Origin: Candidatus Hydrogenedens sp.
Lineage (GTDB): Bacteria; Hydrogenedentota; Hydrogenedentia; Hydrogenedentales; Hydrogenedentaceae
Assembly: GCA_049968235.1 (NCBI GenBank)
Contig: JBMFRC010000012.1
Location: forward strand, 33,366-97,365
Direction of reading: 5' to 3'
DNA length: 64,000 nucleotides
This document shows, in pieces, positions 4,629 through 21,215 of this stretch (the stretch's first letter is position 1; every line of letters starts with the position of its first letter). The position numbers and the translations under genes are program-made. The notes beneath the pieces were generated by a model. That model made no database searches, had not been told where the DNA came from, and was given only the letters and a program-made list of their open reading frames with translations.

Positions 4629-4657
4629 TTGACAAGGAGTAAACAGTGTGCTATAAT
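4629..4657 (+). promoter_or_regulatory. Near-consensus sigma70 promoter (TTGACA-17nt-TATAAT) for rex-hydrogenase operon
   Basis: TTGACA at 4629-4634, a 17-nt spacer, and TATAAT at 4652-4657, lying 80 nt upstream of the rex ATG. Confidence 0.5.
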
Positions 4658-5458: not shown

Positions 5459-5983
5459 ATGAATGAAGAATCAAAGCATGCGTGTATGGAAGAAGCAAGT
5501 GAAGAAGAACTGCTTGCTCGGCTTGATGAAGTAATTGCAGAATATAAGGACAAGCCCGGTGCTCTTATTCCTGTTCTGCAGATTGCTCAGGCTATGTTTG
5601 GTTATCTACCCGAAAGTGCATTAAAAAAGATTAGTTTGGGACTGAACAAACCGTATAGTGAAGTTGCAGGTGTGGTAACATTTTACTCATTCTTTTCAAC
5701 CCAGCCTCGTGGAAAACATATGATTCGTGTCTGTTTAGGAACTGCTTGTTATGTCCGTGGTGGCAAACAGGTTCTTTCTGCAATTAAGGATAAACTCCAT
5801 ATTGATGTTGGAGAGACCACGAAAGACCGTATGTTCTCTTTAGAGGTGGCTCGTTGTTTTGGTGCTTGTGGGCTTGCTCCTGCCATTATGGTGGATAACG
5901 ATGTGCATCAACGGGTAAAACCTGCCCGAATTCAGGCTATTTTAGACCAGTATTTAGACAAAAACACAGAAAAAAATAAATAA
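5459..5983 (+). CDS. hndA: NuoE-like [2Fe-2S] subunit of multimeric [FeFe] hydrogenase (HndA/HydC-like)
   Basis: Thioredoxin-like 2Fe-2S fold with the Cys pattern CLGTACYVRGG ... CFGACGLAPA, typical of NuoE/HoxE/HydC. A good RBS (TAGGAGATAGAAT-ATG) precedes the start. Confidence 0.8.
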   Translation: MNEESKHACMEEASEEELLARLDEVIAEYKDKPGALIPVLQIAQAMFGYLPESALKKISLGLNKPYSEVAGVVTFYSFFSTQPRGKHMIRVCLGTACYVRGGKQVLSAIKDKLHIDVGETTKDRMFSLEVARCFGACGLAPAIMVDNDVHQRVKPARIQAILDQYLDKNTEKNK

Positions 5984-6005: not shown

Positions 6006-6377
6006 ATGTCAAATATTATTCATTCTCCAGAAGACCTTAATGCTTTACGAGAAAAGGCAATTAAGGACATTGAGATTCGTAATTCACATAAAGATTTGGT
6101 GATTACTGTTCACATGGGAACATGTGGTATTGCTGCGGGTGCCAGAGAAGTATTAAAAAATATCATCTCTGAAATTTCTGCTATAGGTATAACCAATGTT
6201 ACAGTCCGTCAATCTGGATGTGCAGGTCTCTGCGACCGTGAACCCATGATTACGGTTACTCATAAATCCTCCGGTTCTGAATATCGTTATGGAAAATTAA
6301 ACACGGAAAAGATACGAGAAATTGTGAAACAGCATATTGCAGAAGGTAAACCTGTGATGGAATATTTAATTTCCTGA
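6006..6377 (+). CDS. hndB: Thioredoxin-like [2Fe-2S] ferredoxin (HndB-like small hydrogenase subunit)
   Basis: 123 aa with cysteine motifs HMGTCGIAAGA and CAGLCDREP of 2Fe-2S Trx-like ferredoxins. It sits between the NuoE-like and NuoF-like genes, as in hnd operons. Confidence 0.7.
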   Translation: MSNIIHSPEDLNALREKAIKDIEIRNSHKDLVITVHMGTCGIAAGAREVLKNIISEISAIGITNVTVRQSGCAGLCDREPMITVTHKSSGSEYRYGKLNTEKIREIVKQHIAEGKPVMEYLIS

Positions 6378-6460
6378 TGAAGAAATACAGGGTAAATTCG
6401 GATTCCCATAAAGTGGTTGAGATGAACATGTATAGCAAAATAAGAAAGAATGATATAGAA

Positions 6461-7906
6461 ATGAAAATGAACATATTACATCTATTTCTTATTTTATTTT
6501 TATGTTCATCCGCAACCTTTACTGAAATATCTGATTGGGAAACCATCTCACTTTCGGATACAGGAGAAGCATTACAAAATCCCGGCATGGGATGGGTATT
6601 ACATTTTTACGATAATGTTCCTGAAAATTATGGTTCTAAATTAGCCCCTTCAGATACTGTTGATGAATTCCCTGCCCTTTCAGTTATTTATTTGCGAATA
6701 GCATGGTCGTTTTTAGAACCTGAAGAAGGAAAGTATAACTGGTCTATATTGGATACTCCTTCTCAACGATGGATTTCTAAAGGGAAACAAATTGCTTTGC
6801 GCATTACCTGTAGTGAAACTCCTATTCCATGGGCGACACCAAAATGGGTTTATGAAGCAGGAGCCAAAGGTAATTTCTTCATTCCTACCCAGGGGATAAA
6901 AGAAAATGGGACACATTGGGAACCCGAATTTGATGACCCTGTTTTCTTGGATAAGTTGGATAATTTTTTAGCAGTGTTAGCAAAGAGATATGATGAAAAT
7001 CCGGAAATAGCCTTCATAGATATGGGTTCATTAGGAGTGTGGGGAGAAGGTCATGTATGGCATTCCACACAAAAACATATTTCGACGGAAACCATAAAAA
7101 AACACATTGATTTGCACATAAAGCACTTTAAAAACACAATAATTGCTCTAAATGATGACCTTATCACAAATGGGCAAAAATTGGATGTAATTCCCGAAGA
7201 GAAAAAAGAACTCCTCAATTATGCTATCAAAAATGGGTTAACACTTCGCGATGATAGTATTCTTGTTCAGGGTGGAGATAATGTATATTTTAGTGCAAGC
7301 CTTGCGGAATACTTCTGGCGAAATAGACCTATCATTTTAGAATCTGAACATTATGGACCATCAAAGGCTGAAAGGCATTGGGGGGACGGAAGTAAATATT
7401 TACAGGCTGTAGAAGATTACCATGCAAGTTATACTTCTATTCATTGGTGGCCAAGGGAGTTTTTACAAGAAAACAAAGATTTGATAGATAAAATCAATCT
7501 TCGTTTGGGGTATCGTATTGTCCCTACCGAAGTTAAATGGCAAAAGACAGTAAAAATATCCGAGAAAAAATGGGATATATCCTACCGTTGGGCAAATAAA
7601 GGAGTGGCACCTTGTTATCGGGATGTATATCCCATTATTACATGGAAAGATGAGAAAGGAGGAATTGTTGCTGTTTTTACAGATGAGACATTTAATCTCA
7701 AACAATTACCAATAGGGAAGCAGGATGAATTAAAAGAAATTGAGGTAAAAAAATCTTTTTTTATTCCTTTTTTATTGAAAGAAGGAAATTATACAGTATT
7801 CATTTCAGCGGGTTCTATTACGGGCACGCCTGAAATTCAATTACCGTTAAACAACACAGACCATGAAAAAAGATATGTTATAGGTAAAGTTAATGTTGTT
7901 TTGTGA
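6461..7906 (+). CDS. Secreted TIM-barrel glycoside hydrolase-like protein (GH42/GH35-like N-terminal motif; DUF4832-like)
   Basis: Signal peptide MNILHLFLILFLCSSATF. AWSFLEPEEGKYNW matches the GH42/GH35 W-x-x-LEP-x-x-G-x-Y motif, and GSLGVWGEGH matches GH42-like blocks. The most likely start is internal, at the MKMNILH methionine at 6461. Confidence 0.5.
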   Translation: MKMNILHLFLILFLCSSATFTEISDWETISLSDTGEALQNPGMGWVLHFYDNVPENYGSKLAPSDTVDEFPALSVIYLRIAWSFLEPEEGKYNWSILDTPSQRWISKGKQIALRITCSETPIPWATPKWVYEAGAKGNFFIPTQGIKENGTHWEPEFDDPVFLDKLDNFLAVLAKRYDENPEIAFIDMGSLGVWGEGHVWHSTQKHISTETIKKHIDLHIKHFKNTIIALNDDLITNGQKLDVIPEEKKELLNYAIKNGLTLRDDSILVQGGDNVYFSASLAEYFWRNRPIILESEHYGPSKAERHWGDGSKYLQAVEDYHASYTSIHWWPREFLQENKDLIDKINLRLGYRIVPTEVKWQKTVKISEKKWDISYRWANKGVAPCYRDVYPIITWKDEKGGIVAVFTDETFNLKQLPIGKQDELKEIEVKKSFFIPFLLKEGNYTVFISAGSITGTPEIQLPLNNTDHEKRYVIGKVNVVL

Positions 7907-7977
7907 AAAAAAATATAAAGATATAAATAAAAACTTCAGAAATGAAGCATACACAAGTTATGGAAAGGAGAAAAAAA

Positions 7978-10900
7978 ATGAGTCCATTTCGAAGTCATGT
8001 ATTAATCTGTGCAGGTGCAGGATGCGTGGCATCAGGTTCGATGGAAGTAAGTTCCGCCTTTTCGGAGGCACTTGCCAAACATGGGCTAAATGAAGAAATT
8101 CAAGTAGTCCATACAGGATGTTTAGGACCCTGTGCTATTGGTCCCGTGGTCGTGATTTATCCAGATGCTATTTTTTATCAAGGTGTTAAAACAACAGATG
8201 TTGAAGATATTGTTGTTGAGCATCTGTTAAAAGGTCGGCCTGTTAGTCGCTTGAATTTCAAATCTACTACCACATCACAAATTATTCCTGCACTGCAGGA
8301 GATTGGTTTTTTCAAGCAACAGACAAAGATAGTTTTAAGGAACTGTGGTATTATAGACCCTACAAAAATTGAGGAGTATATTGCGAGAGATGGGTATCAG
8401 GCTTTAGCAAAAGTACTGACAAAAATGACTCCACAGCAGGTAGTAGAAGAAGTGAAAAAATCTGGACTTCGGGGAAGAGGTGGTGCAGGATTCCCAACAG
8501 GTATAAAGTGGGAGTTAACTCAAAAAGCCCACGGAGATAAGAAATATGTTCTTTGTAATGCTGATGAAGGTGACCCGGGCGCATTTATGGACAGAAGTGT
8601 TTTGGAAGGTGACCCCCATAGTGTTATTGAAGCTATGATTATAGCAGGATATGCCATTGGTTCTGACCAGGGATATATTTATGTTCGAGCAGAATATCCT
8701 TTAGCGGTAGAGAGATTAAATATAGCGATAAAGCAAGCCAGAGAATATGGTTTGTTAGGTAAGAATATTATGGGAACGAATTTTAATTTCGACCTTGAAA
8801 TACGAATGGGTTCAGGTGCTTTTGTGTGTGGAGAAGAAACCGCATTGATGCGTTCTATCGAAGGGAAACGCGGAGAACCCAGACCCCGTCCACCGTTCCC
8901 TGCATATAAAGGTTTATGGGAAAAACCCAGTTTATTAAATAATGTAGAAACCTATGCAAACATCCCTGTAATTATATTAAAAGGTGCTGATTGGTTTGCT
9001 TCCATAGGAACAGGTAAAAGTAAAGGAACAAAAGTGTTTGCCTTAGCAGGTGCTGTAAACAACACAGGATTGGTCGAAATTCCGATTGGTACACCATTAG
9101 GTGAAATTATTTATGATATTGGCGGTGGAATTCCGCGAGGCAAACAATTTAAGGCAGCGCAAATTGGAGGTCCTTCCGGCGGTTGTATTCCAAAACAACA
9201 TCTGAATGTGCCGGTAGATTACGAGTCATTACAGGAATTAGGAGCGATTATGGGTTCCGGTGGATTAATTGTTATGGATGAAGACACATGTATGGTCGAT
9301 ATGGCTCGTTTCTTCCTTGACTTTGTTCAGGATGAGTCATGTGGAAAATGTGTCCCATGCCGGGTCGGAACGAAAAGAATGTTGGAAATTGTGACAAGGA
9401 TTTGTGAGGGTCGGGGAGAAGAAGGCGATATTGAAAAACTTATTGAATTAGGACAACAGATTAAAGATGCATCGTTATGTGGATTAGGGCAGACAGCTCC
9501 AAACCCTGTTCTTTCTGCAATACGGCACTTCCGTGATGAATTTGAAATTCATATTCGTGAACATAAATGTCCGGCGGGTGTCTGTCCATCTCTTGTTCGT
9601 GCTCCTTGTATGAGTGCTTGCCCGGCAAATGTTTACATTCCGGGTTTTGTCTCATTAATATCTGAAAAACGATATGCGGAAGCACTTCGTGTGCATCGTG
9701 ACCAGAACCCCTTTGCATCTGTATGTGCCCGTGTGTGTTTCCATACTTGTGAGGACAAATGTAGAAGAGCTACTCTGGATGAAGCGGTATCCATACGCGG
9801 ATTGAAGCGATTTATGGTAGAGCAAGAAGTTACAATACAACTACCTGAAATTCGTGAAAATGAACAAAATCTTCGCAAAAAGGTGGCTATTATAGGAGCA
9901 GGTCCTGCAGGTCTAACCTGTGCTTATTTCCTTGCACGATTAGGCTATCAACCCCGTGTTTTTGAATCTGCACCCAGGCCCGGCGGTATGTTAGTTCAAA
10001 CAATTCCCGCTTATCGGTTACCCCGAGAAGAATTGGCTCGAGAAATTCGTATGATAGAAAGAATGGGCGTTGTCATAGAAACTGAAAAAGCCTTAGGTCG
10101 TGATTTTACATTACAAAGCCTTCGTGATGATGGATATGAGGCTATTTTTCTCGGAATAGGTGCTCCATCAGGTCAAAAATTGAGAATTCCAGGCGAAGAT
10201 GCGGATGGCGTTGTCGAAGCCATAGACTTCCTTCGTGAATACAATCTCCGTGGTTCTGTTCCTGTAGGGAAAAATGTTGTTATTATAGGAGGTGGTAATG
10301 CAGCTATTGATGCGGCAAGAACTGCCATTCGTTTAGGAGCAAAAAAAGCAACGATTCTTTACCGCAGAACAAGAGAAGAGATGCCTGCGTATAAAGAAGA
10401 GATCGAAGAAGCAGTTAATGAAGGTGTTATTTTAAAAATGTTAGTAACTCCACTGGAGATTTTGACAGAAAACGGAAAAGTTGTTGGTGTAAAATGTCAA
10501 CACATGTGGTTAGGAGAATATGACCGTTCCGGTAGAAGAAGACCTGAAGCCAAAAAGGGTGAAGAACCCTTTGTTGAAGAAGCAGACCAGGTTATTGCAG
10601 CAATAGGGCAAACTGTTGATTTAAAACGTTACCTGGATGGATTAAATGTTAAGTTAACACCTTCTGGTTTCTTGTGGGTAGACCAATTATATGGTCAGAC
10701 CTCTATTGAATGGTTATTTGCAGGTGGTGATATTAGTTCAGGTCCTTCTTCCGTAGCAGAAGCAATCGGTGCTGGTGAAAGAGCTGCAGTTGGAATTGAT
10801 AAGTATCTTACTGGAGAAGAACATGCTTTCTGGCGCGAACCCTATATGGTAGATACAGAATTTGACCCAGATTCCGACCCGGTAGATTTCCCAAGAGCAA

Positions 10901-11049
10901 AAATGAAACTTTTACCTGTTGAAAAGAGGGTACACAACTTTAATGAAGTTGAAATCCCGTTTACGGAAACATTAGCGGTAAGAGAGGCACGCCGTTGCTT
11001 ACGTTGTGATTATCGTGAAACAAAAATAAGTTTAAATACACAACAATAA
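7978..11049 (+). CDS. hndC: Fusion flavoprotein: HndC/HydB (NuoF-like, FMN/NADH, Fe-S) + GltD/NfnB-like FAD/NAD(P)H oxidoreductase domain
   Basis: The N-terminal Trx-like 2Fe-2S domain is CAGAGC...CLGPC. The NuoF blocks are GLRGRGGAGFPTGIKW, CNADEGDPGAF and 4Fe-4S CGKCVPCRVG. From about residue 540 come the GltD-like Fe-S region (CPAGVCP...CMSACP), FAD site VAIIGAGPAGLTCAY and NAD(P)H site VVIIGGGNAAIDAA. I chose the start at MSPFRSH (7978) because it has a GGAAAGGAG RBS. Confidence 0.8.
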   Translation: MSPFRSHVLICAGAGCVASGSMEVSSAFSEALAKHGLNEEIQVVHTGCLGPCAIGPVVVIYPDAIFYQGVKTTDVEDIVVEHLLKGRPVSRLNFKSTTTSQIIPALQEIGFFKQQTKIVLRNCGIIDPTKIEEYIARDGYQALAKVLTKMTPQQVVEEVKKSGLRGRGGAGFPTGIKWELTQKAHGDKKYVLCNADEGDPGAFMDRSVLEGDPHSVIEAMIIAGYAIGSDQGYIYVRAEYPLAVERLNIAIKQAREYGLLGKNIMGTNFNFDLEIRMGSGAFVCGEETALMRSIEGKRGEPRPRPPFPAYKGLWEKPSLLNNVETYANIPVIILKGADWFASIGTGKSKGTKVFALAGAVNNTGLVEIPIGTPLGEIIYDIGGGIPRGKQFKAAQIGGPSGGCIPKQHLNVPVDYESLQELGAIMGSGGLIVMDEDTCMVDMARFFLDFVQDESCGKCVPCRVGTKRMLEIVTRICEGRGEEGDIEKLIELGQQIKDASLCGLGQTAPNPVLSAIRHFRDEFEIHIREHKCPAGVCPSLVRAPCMSACPANVYIPGFVSLISEKRYAEALRVHRDQNPFASVCARVCFHTCEDKCRRATLDEAVSIRGLKRFMVEQEVTIQLPEIRENEQNLRKKVAIIGAGPAGLTCAYFLARLGYQPRVFESAPRPGGMLVQTIPAYRLPREELAREIRMIERMGVVIETEKALGRDFTLQSLRDDGYEAIFLGIGAPSGQKLRIPGEDADGVVEAIDFLREYNLRGSVPVGKNVVIIGGGNAAIDAARTAIRLGAKKATILYRRTREEMPAYKEEIEEAVNEGVILKMLVTPLEILTENGKVVGVKCQHMWLGEYDRSGRRRPEAKKGEEPFVEEADQVIAAIGQTVDLKRYLDGLNVKLTPSGFLWVDQLYGQTSIEWLFAGGDISSGPSSVAEAIGAGERAAVGIDKYLTGEEHAFWREPYMVDTEFDPDSDPVDFPRAKMKLLPVEKRVHNFNEVEIPFTETLAVREARRCLRCDYRETKISLNTQQ

Positions 11050-11066: not shown

Positions 11067-12839
11067 ATGCCAAAATTAACTATAGATGGAATTCCCGTAG
11101 AAGTTCCGGAAGGAACAACAATACTTCAAGCGGCAAAGCAAATAGGATTAAAAATACCGACACTTTGTTATCTTGAAGAAGTTCAAGCCATCGGTGCCTG
11201 TCGTGTTTGCGTTGTTGAAGTTGAAGGAGCACGAACTTTGGTCGCTTCTTGTGTTGCTCCTGTTGCGGAAGGAATGAAAGTCCATACAAATTCAAAAAGA
11301 GCCCGTGAGGCACGAAAAACAGTTGTAGAATTGTTACTATCCGACCATGATGGCGATTGCCAGATTTGTGTTCGAAATGAAGATTGTGAACTTCAGGAAT
11401 TGGCACGAACACTTGGGATAAAGGAAATTCGCTATCAAGGTGAGAAGAGAAAACGGATTGTGGATGAAAGCACTCCCGCTGTTGTTCGTGATACATCGAA
11501 ATGTGTCTTATGTAGAAGATGTATAACGGTTTGCAATGAGGTTCAGGGTGTTGGCGGACTGTTCCCACAAAATCGTGGCTTTGAAACGGTAATAGGTCCC
11601 GCATTTTGTAGTGATTTGGATGATGTCGTATGTGTTCAGTGTGGTCAATGTAGTGCGGTTTGTCCTGTGGGTGCTATTGTAGAAAGAGACCAGATTGCGG
11701 ATGTCTTTTCTGCATTAGATGACCCGACAAAAACAGTCGTTGTCCAGACAGCCCCTGCAATTCGTGCCGCATTGGGAGAATGTTTTGGTTTACCACCCGG
11801 AACTTTAGTAACAGGGAAGATGGTTACCGCACTTCGTAGACTGGGTTTCCATGCCGTTTTTGATACTAACTTTGCCGCTGACCTTTGTATTATGGAAGAA
11901 GGTACAGAACTGCTAACTCGATTGAAGAAAAAACTGGTAGATGGGGAGAATATTGCTCTTCCTATGTTTACCAGTTGTTCTCCGGGGTGGATTAAGTTTT
12001 TAGAACATTTCTACCCGGATATGATTCCAAATGTATCTACATGCAAATCCCCACAGCAAATGTTTGGTGCTATAGCAAAGACCTATTATTCCAAGAAAAT
12101 TGGTAAGAAACCCGAAGATATTGTTGTTGTTTCTATTATGCCCTGTACAGCGAAGAAATATGAACATCAGCGTCCCGAGATGAACAGTTCCGGTGTTCGT
12201 GATGTGGACTATGTGCTTACAACGCGTGAATTGGGTCGGATGATAAAACAGGCAGGCATTGATTTTGTAAATCTACCCGATGACAAGCAAGACTCACCAT
12301 TAGGACTATCCTCTGGTGCTGCGGATATTTTTGCGAATACCGGGGGTGTTATGGAAGCGGCAATTCGAACTGTTTATGAAATAGTAACAGGACGCGAATT
12401 ACCATTCGATGGACTTCATGTTGCTCCTATCGAAGGATTAGAAGGAATCAAGGAAGCCTCCTTGAAGATAGAAAAATGTGTGCCTGAATGGTCTTTCTTA
12501 GAAGGGGCTACCGTAAATGTTGCTGTGGCTCATGGATTGGGTAATGCCAGAGCATTAATAGAGCGAGTTCGCTCAGGTGAAAAGGCGTATCACTTTATAG
12601 AAATTATGACCTGTCCCGGTGGATGTATTGGTGGAGGAGGACAACCTCGCTTTACAGATAATTCAGTTCGTCTTGCTCGTATTCAGGCCATATACAAAGA
12701 GGATGAAGGGAAACAACTTCGTAAGTCCCATGTAAATCCTGACATACAAAAATTGTATAAGGAATTTTTAGGACATCCGAATAGTGAAGTTTCACATCAT
12801 CTATTACATACGCATTACAATCCGAGAACAAAAGTATAA
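11067..12839 (+). CDS. hydA: [FeFe]-hydrogenase catalytic subunit (HydA/HndD) with N-terminal 2Fe-2S and 4Fe-4S ferredoxin domains; non-canonical L1 motif TSCSPGW
   Basis: The N-terminal plant-type 2Fe-2S is CYLEE...CRVC, and the 4Fe-4S Fd motifs are CVLCRRCITVC and CVQCGQCSAVCP. For the H-cluster, L2 is MPCTAKKYE and L3 is EIMTCPGGCIGGGGQP, both canonical. L1 reads FTSCSPGW where TSCCPxW is expected. Confidence 0.9.
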   Translation: MPKLTIDGIPVEVPEGTTILQAAKQIGLKIPTLCYLEEVQAIGACRVCVVEVEGARTLVASCVAPVAEGMKVHTNSKRAREARKTVVELLLSDHDGDCQICVRNEDCELQELARTLGIKEIRYQGEKRKRIVDESTPAVVRDTSKCVLCRRCITVCNEVQGVGGLFPQNRGFETVIGPAFCSDLDDVVCVQCGQCSAVCPVGAIVERDQIADVFSALDDPTKTVVVQTAPAIRAALGECFGLPPGTLVTGKMVTALRRLGFHAVFDTNFAADLCIMEEGTELLTRLKKKLVDGENIALPMFTSCSPGWIKFLEHFYPDMIPNVSTCKSPQQMFGAIAKTYYSKKIGKKPEDIVVVSIMPCTAKKYEHQRPEMNSSGVRDVDYVLTTRELGRMIKQAGIDFVNLPDDKQDSPLGLSSGAADIFANTGGVMEAAIRTVYEIVTGRELPFDGLHVAPIEGLEGIKEASLKIEKCVPEWSFLEGATVNVAVAHGLGNARALIERVRSGEKAYHFIEIMTCPGGCIGGGGQPRFTDNSVRLARIQAIYKEDEGKQLRKSHVNPDIQKLYKEFLGHPNSEVSHHLLHTHYNPRTKV

Positions 12840-12964: not shown

Positions 12965-13360
12965 ATGGAAAATAAAATTATAATGGTCGTTGATGATGAT
13001 ATTGATGTTCAGGATTTCTGTAAAATTGTATTAGGAAGAGAGGATTATCAGGTTATAACATTTTCCAACTCAGAGAGTGCACTCGAATATTTATCGTCGA
13101 ACACTCCCTCTGTAATTATTACCGATTTAATGATGGGTGGAATTGATGAGGGTGTCCAATTTGTTAATAAGATTAGAGGATTCGATAATGAGAAGGCAAA
13201 AATTCCAATTATAATGATTACAGGCATAAATTCAAAATTAGGATATGACATCACTCCCCGTTCCGATGAAGAAAAAAAACAAATGAAAATCGATGAATTT
13301 ATATCAAAACCTTTAAATCCAAAACAGTTAATAACAGCACTAAAAAAAGTAATCAAATAG
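12965..13360 (+). CDS. Single-domain response regulator (CheY-like receiver only)
   Basis: 131 aa with acidic pocket VVDDD, a phospho-acceptor in SVIITDLMMGG and a conserved K in FISKP. There is no output domain. Confidence 0.75.
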   Translation: MENKIIMVVDDDIDVQDFCKIVLGREDYQVITFSNSESALEYLSSNTPSVIITDLMMGGIDEGVQFVNKIRGFDNEKAKIPIIMITGINSKLGYDITPRSDEEKKQMKIDEFISKPLNPKQLITALKKVIK

Positions 13361-13412: not shown

Positions 13413-14810
13413 ATGAGTTCAAATGTAGAAACTGTTCCTATTAATGAGGAATTTATTTTTGATACTTTAAAAAATAGTGTCAAGAAAGATGCGGTTTACA
13501 TCAAAGAAATTCTTGCAAAAGCCCTTGAATTAAAGGGATTAGATGCGACAGAAGTAGCCACGCTTGCAACAATAAGTGACCCTGACCTGTTAAAAGAACT
13601 TTTCGATACAGCCCGAAAAGTCAAAGAGGAGATTTACGGTAAACGATTAGTTCTTTTTGCCCCACTTTATGTATCAAATCTTTGCAAGAATGAATGCTTA
13701 TATTGTGCTTTCCGTAAAAGTAACAAGATGGTTCGTAGAAAAGCATTGACACAAGAAGAAGTCCGTAGAGAGGTTGAAACATTGGTTGACCAGGGGCATA
13801 AACGCATTCTATTAGTGGCAGGCGAGTCCTATCCTTCCGAAGGATTTGATTATGTTATTCATTGTATCGAAACAATATATAGTGTAAAGCGGGATAGGGG
13901 AGAGATACGACGCGTAAATGTGAATATAGCACCCTTATCGTTAGAGGAATTTAAAAGGCTGAAATCAGCAAAAATTGGGACATATCAGTTATTTCAAGAA
14001 ACATACCACAGAGAAACATACCAAAAAGTCCATGTAGGTGGACTTAAAAAGGATTTTGACTGGAGAATTACCGCTATGGACCGTGCTATGAAAGCTGGCA
14101 TTGATGATGTGGGTGTTGGCGTTCTTTTTGGCTTATTTGATTGGAGATTTGAAATACTTGCTTTAATGCAACATATTAAACATTTAGAAGATACCTTCGG
14201 TGTAGGATGTCACACGATAAGTGTACCTCGCCTTGAACCTGCTATAGGTTCAGACCTGGCTTCACATCCCCCTTATCCGGTATCAGACCTTGATTTCAGA
14301 AAAATTGTAGCTATACTAAGACTTGCTGTGCCCTATACAGGAATAATAATGTCCACTCGTGAAACTCCCAATATACGAAGAGAAACCTTTGCACTGGGTG
14401 TATCACAAATATCAGCAGGCAGTAGAACGAATCCAGGTGGGTATACAGGCAGTGAAGAAGAGGATATGAGCCAATTCTCATTAGGTGACCATCGCAGTCT
14501 GGATGAGGTTATTCGTGATGTTACAAAATTAGGTTATATCCCATCCTTCTGCACGGCTTGTTATCGTTTAGGCAGAACAGGTGCTGACTTTATGGACCTT
14601 GCCAAGCCGGGTCTTATCAAGAACCATTGTGAAGTTAATGCTTTAAGCACTTTTGCTGAATATCTGGAAGATTATGCATCCTCCGAAACAAAACAAATAG
14701 GTTGGGCAAAGATTGAGGAAATTTTAAATACAATGCCTGAAGTTCGGAAAAAACGTACCGAAGGGATGTTGGCTCGTGTAAAAGCCGGTGAACGGGATGT
14801 ATATGTGTAA
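13413..14810 (+). CDS. hydG: [FeFe]-hydrogenase maturase HydG (radical SAM tyrosine lyase)
   Basis: The radical SAM motif is CKNECLYCAF. The C-terminal auxiliary-cluster motif CTACYR...(22)...HC (Cx2Cx22C) separates HydG from ThiH. A length of about 465 aa fits. Confidence 0.9.
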   Translation: MSSNVETVPINEEFIFDTLKNSVKKDAVYIKEILAKALELKGLDATEVATLATISDPDLLKELFDTARKVKEEIYGKRLVLFAPLYVSNLCKNECLYCAFRKSNKMVRRKALTQEEVRREVETLVDQGHKRILLVAGESYPSEGFDYVIHCIETIYSVKRDRGEIRRVNVNIAPLSLEEFKRLKSAKIGTYQLFQETYHRETYQKVHVGGLKKDFDWRITAMDRAMKAGIDDVGVGVLFGLFDWRFEILALMQHIKHLEDTFGVGCHTISVPRLEPAIGSDLASHPPYPVSDLDFRKIVAILRLAVPYTGIIMSTRETPNIRRETFALGVSQISAGSRTNPGGYTGSEEEDMSQFSLGDHRSLDEVIRDVTKLGYIPSFCTACYRLGRTGADFMDLAKPGLIKNHCEVNALSTFAEYLEDYASSETKQIGWAKIEEILNTMPEVRKKRTEGMLARVKAGERDVYV

Positions 14811-14815
14811 ATCTT

Positions 14816-16237
14816 ATGTCAGACTACCGAATTGAAACCGACTTATTGGGTGAAAAAAAGATACCTGCGGATGTCTATTGGGGTATACATACTGCTCGTG
14901 CAGTAGAAAATTTTCCTGTTTCCCGACTCTCGGTTCATTCAGAATTAATCCAATCTTATGGAATTGTAAAACTTGCATGTGCAAAAATAAATTATTCGTT
15001 AGGATACTTATTACATCCTCCTGATAAATCATCTGCCATATTTAACGCTTGCGAAGAAGTAGCAATTGGTAAATGGAATGACCATATTATCGTGGATGCT
15101 CTACAGGGTGGAGCAGGAACCAGCACAAATATGAATATTAATGAGGTTATTGCCAACCGTGCCCTAGAAATATTGGGCTTACCACGGGCAAAATATGACA
15201 TTATTTCCCCATTAGATGATATAAATCTTCACCAATCGACTAACGATACTTATCCTACCGCCCTGAAACTTGCTACGATAAGGATGTTAAGAAAATTAGA
15301 ATCAGAAATTATTCTTCTTTTAGAGACATTTCAAACACTTGAAAAACAATTTTCGGACATAGTAAAAATTGGAAGGACAGAACTTCAAGATGCAACGCCT
15401 ATTACATTAGGTAGGGAGATGGGTGCTTATGCAGATGCCCTAGTAAGAGACCGTTGGCGTATCTATAAGTGTGAAGAAAGATTGCGAGTAGTTAATTTAG
15501 GAGGCACCGCAATAGGAACAGGTTTAGGAGCACCAAGGGATTATATTTTCCGTGTTGTAGATAATCTGCGAGAGTTATCAAATATCGGTTTTTCGCGAGC
15601 AGAAAATTTAGTAGATGCAACTCAAAATCTCGATGTATTTGGGGAAGTATCAGGTATCATTCGTTCCTATGCCATAACGCTTAATAAAATAGCCAATGAT
15701 TTGAGACTAATGTCATCCGGACCCGAAGCAGGTCTCCGTGAAATTCAACTTCCACAATTACAAGCGGGTTCATCTATTATGCCAGGGAAAGTGAACCCTG
15801 TTTTGCCTGAAGCGGTATGCCAGGTTGCAATGCTAACATTTGGATTCGACCAGATTATCACATATGGCTGTTCTTCCGGAAACCTTGAACTAAATCCTTT
15901 TGTCCCTTTGATTGCTCATTGTTTGTTAAATATGATTGAAATGTTAACAAATGTAACAAAATTATTTACGGAAAAATGTATTAAAGGAATTTCGCCGAAC
16001 CGAGAGGTTTGTGTTTCCTATGTGAATAATTCTACAGCAACTCTAACCGCACTTATACAGAAGATAGGATATGAAAAAGCATGTATGATTGCTAAAAAAA
16101 CAAGTAATTTGAAAAAGAGTATTCGAGAAATTGTATTGGAAGAAGGAGTTTTGACTCCTGAAGAATTTGATACTCTTTTAAGTCCTGAGTCCGTTTGTAA
16201 ATTAGGATTTGTTGACACCAGTAATGAGATAGATTAG
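14816..16237 (+). CDS. aspA: Aspartate ammonia-lyase (aspartase/fumarase class II family) homolog embedded in hyd maturase cluster
   Basis: RIETDLLGEKKIPADVYWGIHTARAVENF, QGGAGTSTNMNINEVIAN and the signature GSSIMPGKVNP match aspartase closely and are closer to AspA than to FumC. Confidence 0.8.
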   Translation: MSDYRIETDLLGEKKIPADVYWGIHTARAVENFPVSRLSVHSELIQSYGIVKLACAKINYSLGYLLHPPDKSSAIFNACEEVAIGKWNDHIIVDALQGGAGTSTNMNINEVIANRALEILGLPRAKYDIISPLDDINLHQSTNDTYPTALKLATIRMLRKLESEIILLLETFQTLEKQFSDIVKIGRTELQDATPITLGREMGAYADALVRDRWRIYKCEERLRVVNLGGTAIGTGLGAPRDYIFRVVDNLRELSNIGFSRAENLVDATQNLDVFGEVSGIIRSYAITLNKIANDLRLMSSGPEAGLREIQLPQLQAGSSIMPGKVNPVLPEAVCQVAMLTFGFDQIITYGCSSGNLELNPFVPLIAHCLLNMIEMLTNVTKLFTEKCIKGISPNREVCVSYVNNSTATLTALIQKIGYEKACMIAKKTSNLKKSIREIVLEEGVLTPEEFDTLLSPESVCKLGFVDTSNEID

Positions 16238-16246: not shown

Positions 16247-17500
16247 ATGCTTAGAGCATCACCAAAATCATTTCGACTGCATATTGGTTTTTTTGGTAGA
16301 AGGAATGTTGGAAAATCCAGTTTACTTAATGCAATTACACGACAAAATGTCTCAATTGTTTCTGAATCCGCAGGAACCACAACAGACCCCGTGGAAAAAC
16401 CTATGGAACTACTACCTTTAGGTCCTGTTCTATTCATTGATACTGCGGGCATTGATGATATAGGTGCTTTAGGAGAATTACGGATACAAAAAACAAGACA
16501 AATTTTTGACCGAACCGATGTTGCGGTTGTTGTTACAGAAGCCGGTATATGGGGAGAATTTGAGGAAGGCTTGTGTAATGAGTTTAAGTCAAGAAATGTT
16601 CCTATCGTAGTTGTGTTTAACAAAGTGGACCTGCATGAACCTGATGAAACATTGTGTAATAGGTTGAAAAATGAGAAAATTCTATATGTAAAGACTATTG
16701 CATCAAAGCAGGATGGTATTAGTGAACTCAAAAATGCACTTATTTCTTCAGCCCCCGATGATTTTATAAATAGTCCAACGATTTTAGGAGATTTGGTAGC
16801 TCCTGGTGAATTGGCTGTGCTTGTCGTGCCTATAGATAAAGAAGCACCTAAAGGAAGACTTATTATGCCTCAGGTTCAATCCATCCGTGATTTGTTAGAT
16901 AACGATGCTATGTGTGTTGTCGTAAAAGAAAGAGAACTCCGGCGAATTTTAGAACAATTAAAAATTCTTCCAAAGATTGTTGTTACTGATTCCCAGGCAT
17001 TCTTAAAAGTCGTCGCAGATACTCCTTCCAATGTATGGGTTACAAGTTTTTCAATATTATTTTCAAGATTCCGCGGAGATTTAATTACACAGGTGGAAGG
17101 AACACTTGCTATCGAATCATTGAAACCCGGAGATAAAATACTTATTGCAGAATCATGCTCGCATCACCCTATTGCCGATGATATAGGAAGGGTTAAAATA
17201 CCAAGATGGTTAATGCAATATATCGGTGGAAAATTAGAATTTGATACTGTTCAGGGAAATGATTTTTTTTCAGATTTAACAAAATATAAAATGGTTATAC
17301 ACTGTGGAGCATGCACACTCAATCGCCGTGCTATGTTAAATCGTATTATGCATTGCAAAAAACAAGGGATACCAATAAGTAATTACGGGTTAACTATAGC
17401 CTATTCTTTAGGTATCCTCGAAAGGGCATTAGAACCATTCCCATCCGCATTGGAAATATATAAACAGAAAACAACAAAAAAGTTGCAAAACATTAAATAA
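16247..17500 (+). CDS. hydF: [FeFe]-hydrogenase maturase GTPase HydF
   Basis: The GTPase G1 motif is GRRNVGKSSLLNA and G3 is DTAG. The C-terminal cluster motif is CSHHP...HCGAC (CxHx(n)HCxxC). Confidence 0.85.
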   Translation: MLRASPKSFRLHIGFFGRRNVGKSSLLNAITRQNVSIVSESAGTTTDPVEKPMELLPLGPVLFIDTAGIDDIGALGELRIQKTRQIFDRTDVAVVVTEAGIWGEFEEGLCNEFKSRNVPIVVVFNKVDLHEPDETLCNRLKNEKILYVKTIASKQDGISELKNALISSAPDDFINSPTILGDLVAPGELAVLVVPIDKEAPKGRLIMPQVQSIRDLLDNDAMCVVVKERELRRILEQLKILPKIVVTDSQAFLKVVADTPSNVWVTSFSILFSRFRGDLITQVEGTLAIESLKPGDKILIAESCSHHPIADDIGRVKIPRWLMQYIGGKLEFDTVQGNDFFSDLTKYKMVIHCGACTLNRRAMLNRIMHCKKQGIPISNYGLTIAYSLGILERALEPFPSALEIYKQKTTKKLQNIK

Positions 17501-17508: not shown

Positions 17509-18561
17509 ATGGATAAAAAAAATATTATTAATTGGCTTCGTGAAAAAAACGAAGATAAATTAAACGAACTATGGGAATTGGCGGATTCTATCCGCAGTAA
17601 ATATGTAGGAGAAGAGGTGCATCTTCGAGGTTTGATAGAAATATCAAACTATTGCAAAAAAAACTGTCTATACTGTGGAATACGAATTTCTAATAGAAAA
17701 TTAACCCGATATAGAATGGAAGACAGCGAGATTTTGGAATGTGTGGAATTTGCCAAAAGAAATGGCTATGGAACAATAGTCCTTCAATCCGGCGAAGACC
17801 CCGATTTTACAAAAGAAAAAATCGCCGAATTAATTAGAAAAATAAAAGAAAATGCAAATGTGGCTATTACATTAAGTTTAGGAGAGCAGGAAAAACACAC
17901 ATTAGAATTATGGAAATCTGCCGGAGCCAATCGTTATCTTCTTCGTTTTGAAACCTCAGATGAAATCCTATTTAAAAGAATCCATTCGTCAGAACAAGCA
18001 AAAAGTTTAGAGAATAGAATTAAACAACTAAAAATACTTAAACAATTAGGCTACGAAGCAGGAAGTGGGATAATGATTGGAATACCCTATCAAACTTATG
18101 AAAGCATCGCTAATGATATCCTACTTTTCAAACAATTAGACCTTGATATGATAGGAATAGGACCATACATTCCTCATCCCGATACACCTTTAGGACAGGA
18201 ATATCTTAATAAATATAAAAAAGATGATGAAAAATTTGTCCCAAACACAGAATTAATGACATATAAAGTCCTTGCATTAACCCGAATTATATGTCCAACC
18301 GTAAACATTCCTGCCACCACTGCCCTTGCAACTGTGAATACACGAGAAGGTCGCATTTTAGCCCTGAAGAGGGGAGCCAATGTTATCATGCCGAATCTCA
18401 CTCCACCAAAATATAAAAAATTGTATGAAATTTATCCAGGTAAATCGTCTGCTGATGAACCTCCAGAAATTATTCATCAAAGTATAATGAAGATTATAGA
18501 AAAGGCAGGAAGAAAAGTAGGAACAGGGATGGGAAATCGCAAAAAAATCATAGATATTTAA
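17509..18561 (+). CDS. hydE: [FeFe]-hydrogenase maturase HydE (radical SAM, BioB-like)
   Basis: CKKNCLYCG radical SAM motif, a BioB-like TIM barrel length of 350 aa, and a position at the end of the hydG-hydF cluster. Confidence 0.85.
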   Translation: MDKKNIINWLREKNEDKLNELWELADSIRSKYVGEEVHLRGLIEISNYCKKNCLYCGIRISNRKLTRYRMEDSEILECVEFAKRNGYGTIVLQSGEDPDFTKEKIAELIRKIKENANVAITLSLGEQEKHTLELWKSAGANRYLLRFETSDEILFKRIHSSEQAKSLENRIKQLKILKQLGYEAGSGIMIGIPYQTYESIANDILLFKQLDLDMIGIGPYIPHPDTPLGQEYLNKYKKDDEKFVPNTELMTYKVLALTRIICPTVNIPATTALATVNTREGRILALKRGANVIMPNLTPPKYKKLYEIYPGKSSADEPPEIIHQSIMKIIEKAGRKVGTGMGNRKKIIDI

Positions 18562-19188
18562 TATAAACATATATTGATTAATCAGCAAAAAATAATTGCT
18601 AACATTCAATAGAATATCTTTCTACGTAACACAAACGCCCTACCTGTTTTTTTTAATGTTCAATTCTTTCCTCCATATCCTCTGTGATTCATTTATTTTC
18701 CAAATGTAAGTGTAGTGGGAGCATCCCTGCTCCCTTAAAAAAATAAACATTGATATGCAATCTATCCATTTGGTAGCAAGGATAAGTCTGTTACATACAT
18801 TCACTCTTCAGGGCAGACGCATGGGTCTGCTACTACAAATAATTCCTCACGGGCAGGAGTGCCTATGGTAATTTATAAGACATAATTTTTTTTAAGTTGT
18901 TAGGAATATCTGTGTTCTTTTTAAGATTAAATTGTCTCAAAACTTTATTCTTCATCTTTTATACATCTACATCCTCCACATAAAGAATTATGCCAAGAAA
19001 TACGCAAATTGTAATATATGAATTACAGAAGAGCTTTGGACATAAAGGATAAAGAGAATTTATGGATAGATAACAAGGTAATTTATAAAAGGAAAGATAT
19101 GATTAAAGTTTGTTATAATATTACCCCTTCTTGATGAAATAAAATTGTAAAGAGTAAGATTATATTTATAAATAAGAAAGGAAATGCA

Positions 19189-20601
19189 ATGCCAAAAAAC
19201 ATTTATGAAAAGATATGGGATGCACATTTGGTTCATACACCTGATGACCAGGACCCTATTATCTATATCGACAGGCACTATATCCATGAAGTAACATCAC
19301 CGCAAGCATTTGAAGGACTAAGAATTACTGGTAGAAAAGTGCGTCGTCCTGATTTGACTTTTGCTACGATGGACCATAATATACCGACAACGAATCGTGA
19401 TAAACCGATTGCAGACCCGATGTCTGCGTTACAGGTAGAGACATTAAAAAATAATTGCAAGGAATTTGGTATCCAGTGTTTTGATATGTATGACCCACGA
19501 AATGGGATAGTTCATGTTGTGGGTCCGGAGTTAGGATTAACACAACCAGGGATGACGATTGTTTGTGGAGATTCTCATACTTCAACACACGGTGCTTTTG
19601 GTGCACTTGCGTTTGGTATTGGAACAAGTGAAGTGGAGCATGTCCTTGCTACGCAAACATTATTGCAAAGAAAATCTAAGACAATGGAAATTCGTATCAC
19701 AGGCAAACTACCTATAGGTGTTACTGCAAAAGACCTTATTATGCATATTATCGGGAAAATAGGAACAGATGGTGGCACGGGTTATGTAATTGAATACACA
19801 GGAGAAGTTGTTAGAAACCTTTCTATGGAAGGTCGTATGACTTTGTGCAATATGACCATAGAGGCAGGTGCACGAGCAGGGCTAATTTCTCCTGATGAGA
19901 CGACTGTGAAATATTTATTAGGAAGACCTTATATTCCAAAACATATCCCCGAAGAAGAACTGATAAAACTCTGGTTGTCATGGGCATCTGACTCTGGCTG
20001 TTCTTATGATAAAACAATAATTATTAATGCTAAGGATGTAGAACCGCAAGTAACATGGGGAACATCTCCCGAAATGGTTGCTCCTATTTCAGGCAGAGTT
20101 CCTGTGTTAAATGAGATACAGGATACAAACCGCAGAAATGCGGTTAACAAAGCCCTCCAATATATGGGTCTTGAAGAAGGAACTCCTATCGAAGCCATCG
20201 AAGTCGATAAGATATTTATTGGTTCCTGTACAAATGGAAGAATTGAAGATTTACGAGAAGTGGCAAAAGTTGTGAAGGGTTATAAAGTTAACCAAAGAAT
20301 AAAGCAGGCAATAATTGTTCCAGGTTCGATGTTAGTAAAGGGACAAGCAGAACAGGAAGGATTACACAATATTTTTATAGAAGCAGGTTTTGAATGGAGA
20401 GAACCAGGTTGCTCCATGTGCCTCGCAATGAACGATGACCGATTAAATCCGGGGGAACGTTGTGCCTCCACTTCAAATCGTAACTTTGAAGGTCGTCAAG
20501 GTAAAGGAGGACGCACACACCTTGTTAGTCCAGCCATGGCTGGAGCCTGTGCTATTACTGGACATTTCGTTGATATTCGCAAATGGAAATTTAATGAATA
20601 A
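19189..20601 (+). CDS. leuC: 3-isopropylmalate dehydratase large subunit
   Basis: The aconitase-family domain with the GSCTNGR and CSMCLAMN Cys ligands, at the typical LeuC length of 470 aa. Confidence 0.9.
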
Positions 20602-20615
20602 AAGGAGATAGAACA

Positions 20616-21215
20616 GTGGAGAAATTTACTGTATTAAAAGGAATTGTCGCACCTTTAGATGCGAGAAATGTGGATACAGACCAGATAGTTCCGAAACAAT
20701 TTTTGAAACGAATACAGAGAACAGGTTATGAAGATGTCCTTTTTTATGATTGGCGTTATCTCAATGATGGGAAAACACTCAATCCGCAATTTGAGATGAA
20801 CGCACTACGTTATAAAGGTGCTACTATTTTATTGACACGTGACAATTTCGGTTGTGGTTCATCACGCGAGCATGCACCATGGGCATTAAAAGATTATGGT
20901 TTCCGTTGTATTCTGGCTATTTCATTTGCTGATATTTTTTACAATAATTGTTTTAACAATGGAATTTTACCCATTACTCTTTCTCTGGAAGTTATTGAAC
21001 AACTTTTTATAGAAGTTCGTTCGCAAGAAAATTATATGTTAGAAATAGATTTAGTAAATCAATTAATTACAAAACCGGATGGAAAACAGATTCATTTTGA
21101 CATCCATTCGTTTCTTAAAGAGCGTTTATTAAATGGATGGGACCAGATAGGTCTTACATTACGATATGAACAATTAATAAGCGAATTTGAACAAAAGCAT
21201 CCACTGAAATTGTGA
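20616..21215 (+). CDS. leuD: 3-isopropylmalate dehydratase small subunit
   Basis: Aconitase swivel domain ([13 protein letters not shown]), 199 aa, immediately downstream of leuC. Confidence 0.9.

What the first reader, a model, noticed from the sequence alone, without database searches (positions are those of the whole stretch)
14816..16237. Aspartate ammonia-lyase homolog embedded between hydG and hydF
The sequence shows a full-length aspartase-type protein (GSSIMPGKVNP, QGGAGTSTNMN, an AspA-like N-terminus) in tight spacing between hydG and hydF: 5 nt after hydG and 9 nt before hydF. The azadithiolate bridge of the H-cluster needs a nitrogen source. An ammonia-releasing lyase co-transcribed with the maturases is a plausible, still poorly characterised accessory factor. 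I recall reports of aspartase/fumarase-family genes recurring near hydEFG but cannot verify them here.
Basis: inference. Interest (0 to 1): 0.55.

Follow-up and report, generated by a model that had tools for sequence, protein, structure and literature searches.

The report
Hydrogenase-maturation-linked aspartase gene, already described
This is a real aspartate ammonia-lyase-type gene sitting between the [FeFe]-hydrogenase maturase genes hydG and hydF, an arrangement already published (2012-2024) as a likely ammonia source for the hydrogenase cofactor; the one modest addition here is that such copies form their own conserved branch, separate from the housekeeping enzyme that was actually tested.

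Summary
ORF 14816-16237 (+) encodes a full-length, 473-aa aspartase-type lyase, 5 nt after hydG and 9 nt before hydF, in a Candidatus Hydrogenedens MAG.

Pagnier et al. 2024 (JBC 300:107760) reported that aspA associates with hyd operons, almost always beside hydF. They also showed that E. coli AspA plus 15N-aspartate labels the bridgehead N of the dithiomethylamine ligand in vitro. The hydG-aspA-hydF order was noted in 2012 (Pelobacter), and a hydG-aspA-hydE-hydF cluster in 2016 (Sulfurospirillum).

What I add:
- The linkage is very strong. 76 of the 80 closest homologues, from more than 10 phyla, have a hyd maturase gene within 10 kb.
- The linked copies form a distinct branch. Identity is at least 56% within the core clade but only about 42-44% to E. 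coli AspA or Bacillus AspB. NJ bootstrap support is 95-96/100.
- Outside the core clade, 7 of 8 sampled members of this branch are hyd-linked, against 0 of 4 sampled members outside the branch.
- All known aspartase catalytic and substrate-binding residues are kept.
- The branch has its own signature (RDRWR.YK.EERLR, H139, E176) and scores below NCBI's aspA equivalog cut-off.
- No member of this branch has been assayed.

Verdict: already known in concept, with low-to-moderate interest.

The parts
14816..16237 (+). Aspartate ammonia-lyase-type gene of the hyd-linked branch (473 aa), here called AspX
   Evidence: Pfam Lyase_1 plus FumaraseC_C. NF008909 scores 629 bits (cut-off 510), but TIGR00839 aspA equivalog scores 516, below its 681 cut-off. 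Best PDB hit is AspB 1j3u, E = 4e-129. 100% identical to P0001, 'MAG: aspartate ammonia-lyase [Candidatus Hydrogenedens sp.]'.
15104..15136 (+). Conserved region QGGAGTSTNMN, holding T102/S103 (AspB T101/S102)
   Evidence: Translation. T102 and S103 are invariant in all 81 core-clade sequences. The motif is the aspartase type (GGAGTS), not the fumarase type (SGSGTQ).
15767..15799 (+). SS loop GSSIMPGKVNP: catalytic Ser319, Ser320, Met322, Lys325, Asn327 (AspB S318, S319, M321, K324, N326)
   Evidence: Alignment to AspB. S319, S320, M322, K325 and N327 are invariant in the clade. The roles of these residues are described in PMC11744663.
15446..15490 (+). Branch signature RDRWRIYKCEERLRV (residues 211-225)
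   Evidence: R213, W214, K218, C219, R222 and R224 are 100% conserved in the 81 core sequences and absent from E. coli AspA, AspB and FumC. R213/W214/K218/R222 are also kept in 83-97% of the more distant hyd-branch representatives and are at most 11% in the canonical branch. YKCEERLR was one of the two patterns that retrieved at least 600 genomic stretches.
13413..14810 (+). hydG (radical SAM maturase, 465 aa)
   Evidence: TIGR03955 scores 540 bits, cut-off 312.
16247..17500 (+). hydF (GTPase scaffold maturase, 417 aa)
   Evidence: TIGR03918 scores 557 bits, cut-off 326. Pfam finds HydF_dimer and HydF_tetramer.
17509..18561 (+). hydE (radical SAM maturase, 350 aa)
   Evidence: TIGR03956 scores 331 bits, cut-off 255.
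11067..12839 (+). hydA, [FeFe]-hydrogenase catalytic subunit (590 aa)
   Evidence: NF040763 'NADH-dependent [FeFe] hydrogenase, group A6' scores 907 bits, cut-off 765. Pfam finds Fe_hyd_lg_C and Fe_hyd_SSU.
12965..13360 (+). Receiver-only response regulator between hydA and hydG (131 aa)
   Evidence: Pfam Response_reg only. The same gene sits in the same position in L001 and L009.
7942..11049 (+). NuoF-like / GltD-like fusion flavoprotein (1035 aa), the likely diaphorase subunit of the hydrogenase
   Evidence: NCBIfam nuoF_fam matches residues 139-538 and NF009410/GltD-type matches residues 506-1022. It precedes hydA in many related loci.
5459..5983 (+). NuoE/HydC-like thioredoxin-like [2Fe-2S] ferredoxin
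   Evidence: Pfam 2Fe-2S_thioredx, 174 bits.

Best explanation
The gene encodes a functional aspartate ammonia-lyase (L-aspartate -> fumarate + NH4+). It belongs to a branch of the aspartase family that travels with the [FeFe]-hydrogenase maturation genes. It is co-transcribed with hydG, hydF and hydE.

Proposed mechanism:
- The SS-loop serine (Ser319) abstracts the C-beta proton of aspartate.
- The beta-carboxylate is held by T102/S141/T142, and the alpha-carboxylate by T188/M322/K325/N327.
- Ammonia is eliminated.
- The released NH4+ feeds the route established in vitro: NH4+ plus methylene-THF plus reduced lipoyl-H-protein, acted on by the T-protein, gives aminomethyl-lipoyl-H-protein. HydF then uses this to build the dithiomethylamine bridge of the [2Fe] subcluster.

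Shown here: gene, family, conserved catalytic residues, operon position, conserved synteny, separate branch.
Shown by others in vitro: an aspartase can supply the DTMA nitrogen.
Inferred: that this branch has aspartase activity, and that supplying ammonia for maturation is its physiological role.
For: - Every residue that defines aspartase chemistry is invariant in all 81 core-clade sequences: R28, T102, S103, S141, T142, N143, T188, S319, S320, M322, K325, N327. Each is kept in 24-29 of the 29 more distant branch representatives. The pocket residues are as defined for AspB in PMC11744663.
- The sequence is aspartase-type rather than fumarase-type: GGAGTS and QSTND motifs, and TIGR00979 fumC scores only 420 bits against a 665 cut-off.
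- The 5-nt and 9-nt gaps, the shared strand and the lack of an intervening terminator on the + strand indicate co-transcription.
- 76 of the 80 closest homologues, across more than 10 phyla, have a hyd maturase gene within 10 kb. Outside the core clade, 7 of 8 sampled branch members are hyd-linked and 0 of 4 sampled non-branch members are. E. coli aspA lies next to dcuA instead.
- Some loci carry only the lyase and hydF within about 20 kb (L041, L056), or only the lyase, hydF and a TM1266-like gene within the 6-kb flanks read (L094). This ties the lyase to the maturase rather than to the hydrogenase.
- The lyase is as conserved as the maturases: 58-70% identity to the window protein, against HydF 60-79%, HydG 47-82% and HydE 36-60%.
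- Published biochemistry: AspA plus 15N-aspartate labels the DTMA nitrogen, and maturation depends on aspartate concentration (PMC11736057). The role is restated in PNAS 2025 (PMC12501116).
Against: - No hyd-linked copy has been assayed. The published experiment used E. coli housekeeping AspA, which is only about 42% identical to this branch.
- Free ammonium, or SdaA plus serine, also supports maturation in vitro. A dedicated aspartase is therefore not chemically required, and some hyd operons lack it.
- The protein scores below the curated aspA equivalog cut-off, 516 against 681.
- Near the active site, the branch has its own changes. H139 is branch-wide. R200 is invariant in the core clade, and L195 is in 79 of its 81 sequences (the window protein keeps Pro). 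Position 189 (AspB H188) is Glu in the window protein and Gln in most members. Altered kinetics or substrate cannot be excluded.
- No glycine-cleavage or glyA gene is co-located in the window or in any locus examined. Gene neighbourhood therefore supports the link to HydF/HydG but not the downstream route.
- A few branch members are not hyd-linked: L066, L079 and P0150.
Confidence: 0.62

Rival explanations
1. The gene has a catabolic or redox role rather than a maturation role. The aspartase feeds aspartate into energy metabolism, with fumarate used as an electron sink or carbon source. It is co-regulated with hydrogen production. Any ammonia it provides for the cofactor is incidental.
For: This was proposed for Pelobacter carbinolicus, where aspA also lies between hydG and hydF (PMC3543383). 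Pagnier et al. themselves invoke fumarate as an anaerobic electron acceptor to explain why aspA, rather than sdaA, is conserved. The catalytic residues predict an ordinary aspartase reaction.
Against: The gene is tied to the maturases, not to the structural hydrogenase genes. Loci exist with only the lyase plus hydF (L041, L056, L094), and the hydrogenase type and position vary while hydG-lyase-hydF stays constant. A catabolic enzyme needed in bulk would not be expected to form a dedicated branch that co-occurs with low-abundance assembly factors in more than 10 phyla. No aspartate or C4-dicarboxylate transporter or fumarate reductase was seen next to it in the window, whereas E. coli aspA lies beside dcuA.
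Confidence: 0.15
2. The protein is a specialised partner of HydF, not just a bulk ammonia source. It docks on HydF or the T/H-protein and delivers ammonia locally, or uses NH4+ to gate the cation-dependent HydF GTPase. The branch-specific Arg/Trp-rich signature would be the interaction surface.
For: The branch-wide signature residues H139, Q173, E176, R213, W214, K218, R222, R261 and E277 are conserved across phyla and absent from canonical aspartases. Across the 68 core-clade loci with testable downstream flank, hydF lies within 700 bp downstream in 49. Lyase-hydF pairs occur on their own. NH4+ stimulates HydF GTP hydrolysis, as cited in PMC11736057.
Against: There is no direct evidence of contact. 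No lyase-Hyd fusion protein was found: the one long representative, P0121, is a tandem aspartase. I could not place the signature residues in 3D with these tools. E. coli AspA, which lacks the signature, works in vitro. In Bacteroidota, 1-3.5 kb separate the lyase from hydF; in L020 the gap holds a two-component system.
Confidence: 0.15
3. The protein is a lyase-superfamily enzyme with a different substrate. It might be a fumarase, or act on another amino- or N-substituted succinate connected with the radical-SAM by-products of HydG or HydE. In that case 'aspartase' would be a misannotation.
For: It fails the aspA equivalog cut-off, 516 against 681. The branch is nearly as far from AspA/AspB (42-44%) as from FumC (39%). 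There are branch-specific or core-clade changes next to the C1 and C2 active-site regions: H139, L195 and R200.
Against: All residues that contact the alpha-carboxylate, beta-carboxylate and amino group of L-aspartate in AspB are conserved. The exception is position 188, where Gln (as in E. coli AspA) or Glu occurs. The fumarase-specific residues are absent: TQS in region 1, SSND, H188. It passes the NF008909 aspartase subfamily cut-off.
Confidence: 0.06

Closest known systems
aspA genes of hyd operons, as described by Pagnier et al. 2024 (JBC 300:107760). Earlier notes: Pelobacter carbinolicus (hydG-aspA-hydF, 2012) and Sulfurospirillum cavolei (hydG-aspA-hydE-hydF, 2016, which also mentions Desulfovibrio vulgaris).
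   Same: The gene family, the position between or next to the maturase genes (especially hydF) and the proposed role as ammonia donor for the DTMA ligand are all the same.
   Different: This instance is in a Candidatus Hydrogenedens MAG, a lineage that none of the passages I read from these papers mention. The published work identified the neighbours by Pfam domain only and made no phylogeny of the lyase. The separate branch and its signature are shown here.
Canonical aspartate ammonia-lyases: E. coli AspA (PDB 1jsw) and Bacillus sp. YM55-1 AspB (PDB 1j3u, 3r6v)
   Same: Same three-domain Lyase_1 plus FumaraseC_C architecture, full-length alignment, SS loop GSSIMPGKVNP, and all substrate-binding residues T101, S140, T141, N142, T187, M321, K324, N326.
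   Different: Identity is only 42-44%, whereas AspA and AspB share 49%. The window protein lies on a separate NJ branch and below the TIGR00839 cut-off. It carries branch-specific residues. Its genomic context is hyd maturases, not dcuA or catabolic genes.
Class II fumarase (FumC)
   Same: Same superfamily and fold, with a shared SS loop and Lys/Asn pair.
   Different: The fumarase-specific residues are absent and the score is below the fumC cut-off, 420 against 665.
Serine ammonia-lyase SdaA as an alternative ammonia source for DTMA
   Same: The proposed physiological role is the same: release of NH4+ for the T-protein/H-protein/HydF route.
   Different: SdaA is an unrelated [4Fe-4S] enzyme with a different substrate. 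By the published statistics it is much less tightly linked to hydF.

Membership tests
Aspartase/fumarase superfamily (Pfam Lyase_1 + FumaraseC_C) | Full-length Lyase_1 domain followed by the FumaraseC_C domain | tested here: met
   PF00206 scores 269 bits over residues 12-339. PF10415 scores 60 bits over residues 411-460.
Aspartase/fumarase superfamily | SS-loop signature GSSxMPxKxN with the catalytic serine | tested here: met
   GSSIMPGKVNP at residues 318-328. S319, S320, K325 and N327 are invariant in all 81 clade members.
Aspartate ammonia-lyase (EC 4.3.1.1) | Aspartate-binding residues of AspB: T101, S140, T141, N142, T187, M321, K324, N326 (H188 variable; Gln in E. coli AspA) | tested here: met
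   All are conserved. Position 188 is Glu in the window protein, Gln in 58 and Glu in 23 of the 81 clade members. The residue roles are from PMC11744663.
Aspartate ammonia-lyase (EC 4.3.1.1) | NCBIfam subfamily model NF008909 above its cut-off | tested here: met
   629 bits against 510.
Aspartate ammonia-lyase (EC 4.3.1.1) | NCBIfam equivalog TIGR00839 (aspA) above its cut-off, meaning orthology to characterised AspA | tested here: not met
   516 bits against 681.2. The tree places it on a sister branch to the one holding E. coli AspA and AspB.
Aspartate ammonia-lyase (EC 4.3.1.1) | Measured deamination of L-aspartate to fumarate and ammonia | not testable with these tools
   This needs an enzyme assay. 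I found no paper that assays a hyd-linked copy.
Class II fumarase | fumC equivalog score and fumarase-type residues (GSGTQS, SSND, catalytic His188) | tested here: not met
   TIGR00979 scores 420 against 664.75. The sequence has GAGTS, STND and Glu189 instead.
hyd-operon-associated ammonia-lyase (Pagnier et al. 2024) | Lyase gene within a few ORFs of hydF/hydG/hydE | tested here: met
   It is directly flanked by hydG (5-nt gap) and hydF (9-nt gap). The same holds for relatives.
hyd-operon-associated ammonia-lyase (Pagnier et al. 2024) | Supplies the DTMA bridgehead nitrogen during maturation | not testable with these tools
   This has been shown in vitro only for E. coli AspA. It has not been shown for this branch, or in vivo.

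The most novel reading that the evidence does not exclude
The hyd-linked branch may be a dedicated fourth maturation factor rather than a housekeeping aspartase placed conveniently. Its conserved Arg/Trp-rich signature (RDRWR.YK.EERLR, plus H139, E176, R261, E277) would mediate docking to HydF or to the T/H-protein. Ammonia would then be handed over locally, or would gate the HydF GTPase, giving a requirement in vivo that bulk ammonium cannot fully replace.
Probability: 0.15. Interest if true: 0.6.

Novelty: already known. Interest (0 to 1): 0.27.

Why it matters
[quoted passage not shown] That point has been published.

What remains open is whether the hyd-linked enzymes are specialised. They form a separate, strongly conserved branch that has never been assayed, and the in vitro work used the E. 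coli housekeeping enzyme. Testing a member of this branch could show whether nitrogen delivery to HydF is channelled. Candidates are this protein or an orthologue from cultured Maribellus/Draconibacterium strains or from Desulfovibrio. A positive result could also improve heterologous or cell-free production of active hydrogenase.

Tried and rejected
1. Fe-S or metal site in the lyase. A 12-sequence alignment showed seven invariant cysteines. With 81 sequences and references, only C55 and C219 are both branch-specific and conserved. C79, C388 and C399 are shared with E. coli AspA, and the rest vary. There is no cluster-binding pattern, so I rejected this.

2. Glu189 as a branch-defining active-site change. 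It replaces His188 of AspB. Most members have Gln, as E. coli AspA does, so I rejected this.

3. Gene fusion between the lyase and a Hyd protein. The 1420-aa top representative P0121 is a tandem aspartase. Other long hits are fusions to PepE, to malic enzyme, or to unidentified extensions. None is fused to a Hyd protein.

4. Co-location of glycine-cleavage genes (gcvT/H/P) or glyA with the module. None was found in the window or in any locus examined.

5. Clean score gap between the hyd-linked and canonical enzymes. The 50%-identity representative library shows a continuum (595, 547, 523... bits). The separation appears in the tree and in gene context, not in raw scores.

6. Accessory genes in the 1-3.5 kb between the lyase and hydF in Bacteroidota. 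In the two loci examined, the gap holds a two-component system and unassigned ORFs in L020 and only unassigned ORFs in L016.

7. Rfam scan of the window. No hits.

8. Structure prediction. Not run, because the tools return no coordinates, so the signature residues could not have been placed in 3D.

Full report
**Observation**

The ORF at 14816-16237 (+) encodes 473 aa and starts with ATG. It begins 5 nt after the stop of the upstream ORF (13413-14810) and ends 9 nt before the next ORF (16247-17500).
- The flanking ORFs pass NCBI's equivalog cut-offs for HydG (540 bits, cut-off 312) and HydF (557 bits, cut-off 326). HydE follows at 17509-18561 (331 bits, cut-off 255).
- The central ORF carries Pfam Lyase_1 and FumaraseC_C.
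- It aligns end to end with Bacillus YM55-1 aspartase AspB (1j3u), E = 4e-129.

The protein is 100% identical to an NCBI entry from a Candidatus Hydrogenedens MAG annotated as aspartate ammonia-lyase.

**Context in the window**

The gene sits in a long same-strand cluster:
- a Rex-like regulator (4737-5432), preceded by a perfect sigma-70-type consensus promoter match (4629-4657)
- a NuoE-like [2Fe-2S] protein (5459-5983)
- a GH42/DUF4832-like ORF (6377-7906)
- a 1035-aa NuoF/GltD-type fusion (7942-11049)
- a group A6 [FeFe]-hydrogenase HydA (11067-12839)
- a receiver-only response regulator (12965-13360)
- then hydG, the lyase, hydF and hydE

No terminator-like site on the + strand separates hydG, the lyase, hydF and hydE except inside coding sequence. 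I therefore take them as co-transcribed. This is an inference.

**What the enzyme is**

It passes the NCBIfam aspartate ammonia-lyase subfamily model NF008909 (629 bits, cut-off 510). It fails the aspA equivalog TIGR00839 (516 bits, cut-off 681), and it is well below the fumC model (420 bits, cut-off 665).

I aligned the window protein and the 80 closest genomic homologues with E. coli AspA, AspB and E. coli FumC. Every residue that binds aspartate or performs catalysis in AspB is invariant in all 81 sequences: R29, T101, S102, S140, T141, N142, T187, S318, S319, M321, K324, N326. The residue roles are those given in PMC11744663.

Position 188 is the exception. It is His in AspB and FumC, and Gln in E. 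coli AspA. In the clade it is Gln in 58 sequences and Glu in 23, including the window protein. The region-1 and QSTND motifs are aspartase-type, not fumarase-type. The sequence therefore predicts ordinary aspartase chemistry.

**Is the association conserved?**

A scan of one genome per species (GTDB) used two peptide patterns taken from the alignment, N[LR]HQSTND and YKCEERLR. The best 80 were returned, at 58-70% identity. They come from Hydrogenedentota, Bacteroidota (Prolixibacteraceae), Planctomycetota, Verrucomicrobiota, Acidobacteriota, Desulfobacterota/Myxococcota, Actinomycetota, Nitrospirota, Armatimonadota and Poribacteria.

I ran tblastn with the window's Hyd proteins against these loci:
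- 76 of 80 have a hyd maturase gene within 10 kb.
- hydG is directly upstream in 59 of 72 loci with enough flank.
- hydF is within 700 bp downstream in 49 of 68, and within 5 kb in 62 of 68.
- Among the four exceptions, two are on short contigs (L029, L063) and two are real (L066, L079).

The order of hydE and the position and type of hydrogenase genes vary, but the hydG-lyase-hydF core is constant. Some loci have only the lyase and hydF: L041 and L056 within about 20 kb, and L094 (with a TM1266-like gene) within the 6-kb flanks read. The lyase is as conserved across these loci (58-70%) as HydF (60-79%) and HydG (47-82%), and more than HydE (36-60%).

**Is it a separate clade?**

- Within the 81 sequences, identity is at least 56% (median 66%).
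- Identity to E. coli AspA is 39-44% and to AspB 41-48%, while AspA and AspB share 49%. Identity to FumC is about 39%.
- A HMMER search of the 50%-identity representative library gave a continuum of scores rather than a gap.
- In an NJ tree of 219 sequences, the 81 sequences are monophyletic (bootstrap 95/100). They are nested in a wider branch of 29 further representatives. That branch is sister to the one holding E. coli AspA and AspB. The separation of the wider branch from the references was recovered in 96 of 100 replicates when up to eight extra leaves were allowed, and in 31-68 for the exact sets.

Gene context follows the tree:
- In the wider branch, 7 of 8 sampled representatives are next to hydG and/or hydF: P0123, P0124, P0125, P0127, P0131, P0134 and P0137. 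P0150 is not.
- Outside the branch, 0 of 4 are: P0174, P0135, P0148 and P0139.
- E. coli aspA lies next to dcuA.

Branch-wide signature residues are H139, Q173, E176, R213, W214, K218, R222, R261 and E277. Core-clade extras include R200, C219, R224, G230, F245 and N264.

**Comparison with what is known**

The idea is published. Pagnier et al. 2024 (PMC11736057) reported the following:
- E. coli AspA plus 15N-aspartate gives 15N-DTMA by ENDOR in a defined lysate-free maturation.
- Maturation depends on aspartate concentration.

The route is NH4+ to aminomethyl-lipoyl-H-protein (through T-protein and SHMT), then to HydF. The role is restated in a 2025 PNAS paper. The arrangement hydG-aspA-hydF was noted for Pelobacter carbinolicus in 2012, with a catabolic interpretation. 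For Sulfurospirillum cavolei in 2016 the order was hydG-aspA-hydE-hydF, with mention of Desulfovibrio vulgaris.

The published bioinformatics built networks for HydE and HydF and recognised neighbours by Pfam domain. It included no phylogeny of the lyase. The enzyme assayed was the E. coli housekeeping AspA. As far as I could find, the distinct, never-assayed branch shown here is a small addition rather than a new discovery.

**Mechanism and rivals**

Most likely (about 0.6), this is a working aspartase whose co-expression with HydG, HydF and HydE supplies NH4+ for the DTMA bridge. Three rivals remain:
- A mainly catabolic or redox role for the fumarate and ammonia produced (about 0.15). The linkage to maturases rather than to hydrogenase genes weakens this.
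- A specialised HydF partner that channels or signals with ammonia (about 0.15). The branch signature and lyase-hydF pairs support it, but there is no direct evidence.
- A different substrate (about 0.06). The fully conserved aspartate pocket weakens this.

No glycine-cleavage or glyA genes are co-located anywhere in my sample. Neighbourhood evidence therefore does not extend to the downstream steps.

**Limits**

- The tree is NJ on Kimura-corrected identities, not maximum likelihood.
- Context sampling outside the core clade is small (12 proteins).
- I could not check whether these genomes also carry a canonical aspA.
- I could not place the signature residues in three dimensions.

**Verdict**

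This is an already known kind of gene in a new lineage, with a modest open question about specialisation of the hyd-linked branch. Interest is about 0.27.

Noticed in passing
window 12965-13360 (+): A receiver-only response regulator (131 aa, no output domain) sits between hydA and hydG. A homologue occupies the same position in L001 and L009. Its role is unknown; it might regulate hydrogenase or maturation.
   Followed up: partly
window 6377-7906 (+): A 509-aa ORF with weak GH42 / DUF4832 (glycoside-hydrolase-like) matches lies between the NuoE-like and the NuoF/GltD-like hydrogenase subunit genes. This is an odd passenger in a hydrogenase operon.
   Followed up: no
window 4629-4657 and 4737-5432 (+): A perfect sigma-70-type consensus match (TTGACA-17-TATAAT with an upstream TG) precedes a Rex-like gene (Put_DNA-bind_N plus CoA_binding). 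This suggests NADH/NAD+-responsive control of the whole hydrogenase/maturase cluster.
   Followed up: no
window 7942-11049 (+): The hydrogenase flavoprotein subunit is a 1035-aa fusion of a [2Fe-2S] domain, a NuoF-like module and a GltD-like (glutamate synthase small subunit type) module. The same fusion precedes hydA in many related loci (for example L009, L022, L026, L044).
   Followed up: partly
window 18562-19188: A 628-bp gap with no ORF of 60 aa or more on the + strand (only two short minus-strand ORFs, 83 and 75 aa, overlap its ends) lies between hydE and the leuC/leuD-like genes (19189-21215). There is no Rfam hit at gathering threshold, and I did not examine it further.
   Followed up: no
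P0121 (1420 aa, representative library): The 50%-identity cluster representative closest to the window protein is a 1420-aa protein with two full aspartase-type domains in tandem plus an N-terminal extension. It may be a gene-call or assembly chimera, or a real tandem fusion.
   Followed up: partly
L066 10001-11398; L079 10001-11386; L101 5001-6377: A few members of the otherwise hyd-linked branch have no hyd gene nearby (within 10 kb in L066 and L079, within the 5-kb flanks read in L101). In L066 the neighbours are a Kup K+ transporter, a PLP-dependent (PALP) enzyme and phosphoglycerate kinase. In L101 they are FtsY and a nucleoside deoxyribosyltransferase. These may be secondary relocations or copies with a different role.
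   Followed up: partly
L094 8704-8982: A small TM1266-like gene ('iron-only hydrogenase system regulator, putative') directly follows hydF in a locus that holds only the lyase and hydF within the 6-kb flanks read, with no hydG, hydE or hydA.
   Followed up: no
L020 11387-14811; also L012, L021, L036, L048: In many Prolixibacteraceae/Bacteroidota loci, hydF is separated from the lyase by 1-3.5 kb. In L020 this gap holds an oppositely oriented two-component system (histidine kinase plus OmpR-type regulator) and two ORFs with no Pfam match. hydE is on the opposite strand upstream of hydG.
   Followed up: partly
window 15398-15400 (residue P195) and 15380-15382 (residue E189): The window protein has Pro195 where 79 of 81 clade members have Leu; canonical aspartases have Pro. 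It has Glu189 where most members have Gln. The Hydrogenedens copy is therefore slightly atypical of its own clade near conserved region 2.
   Followed up: partly
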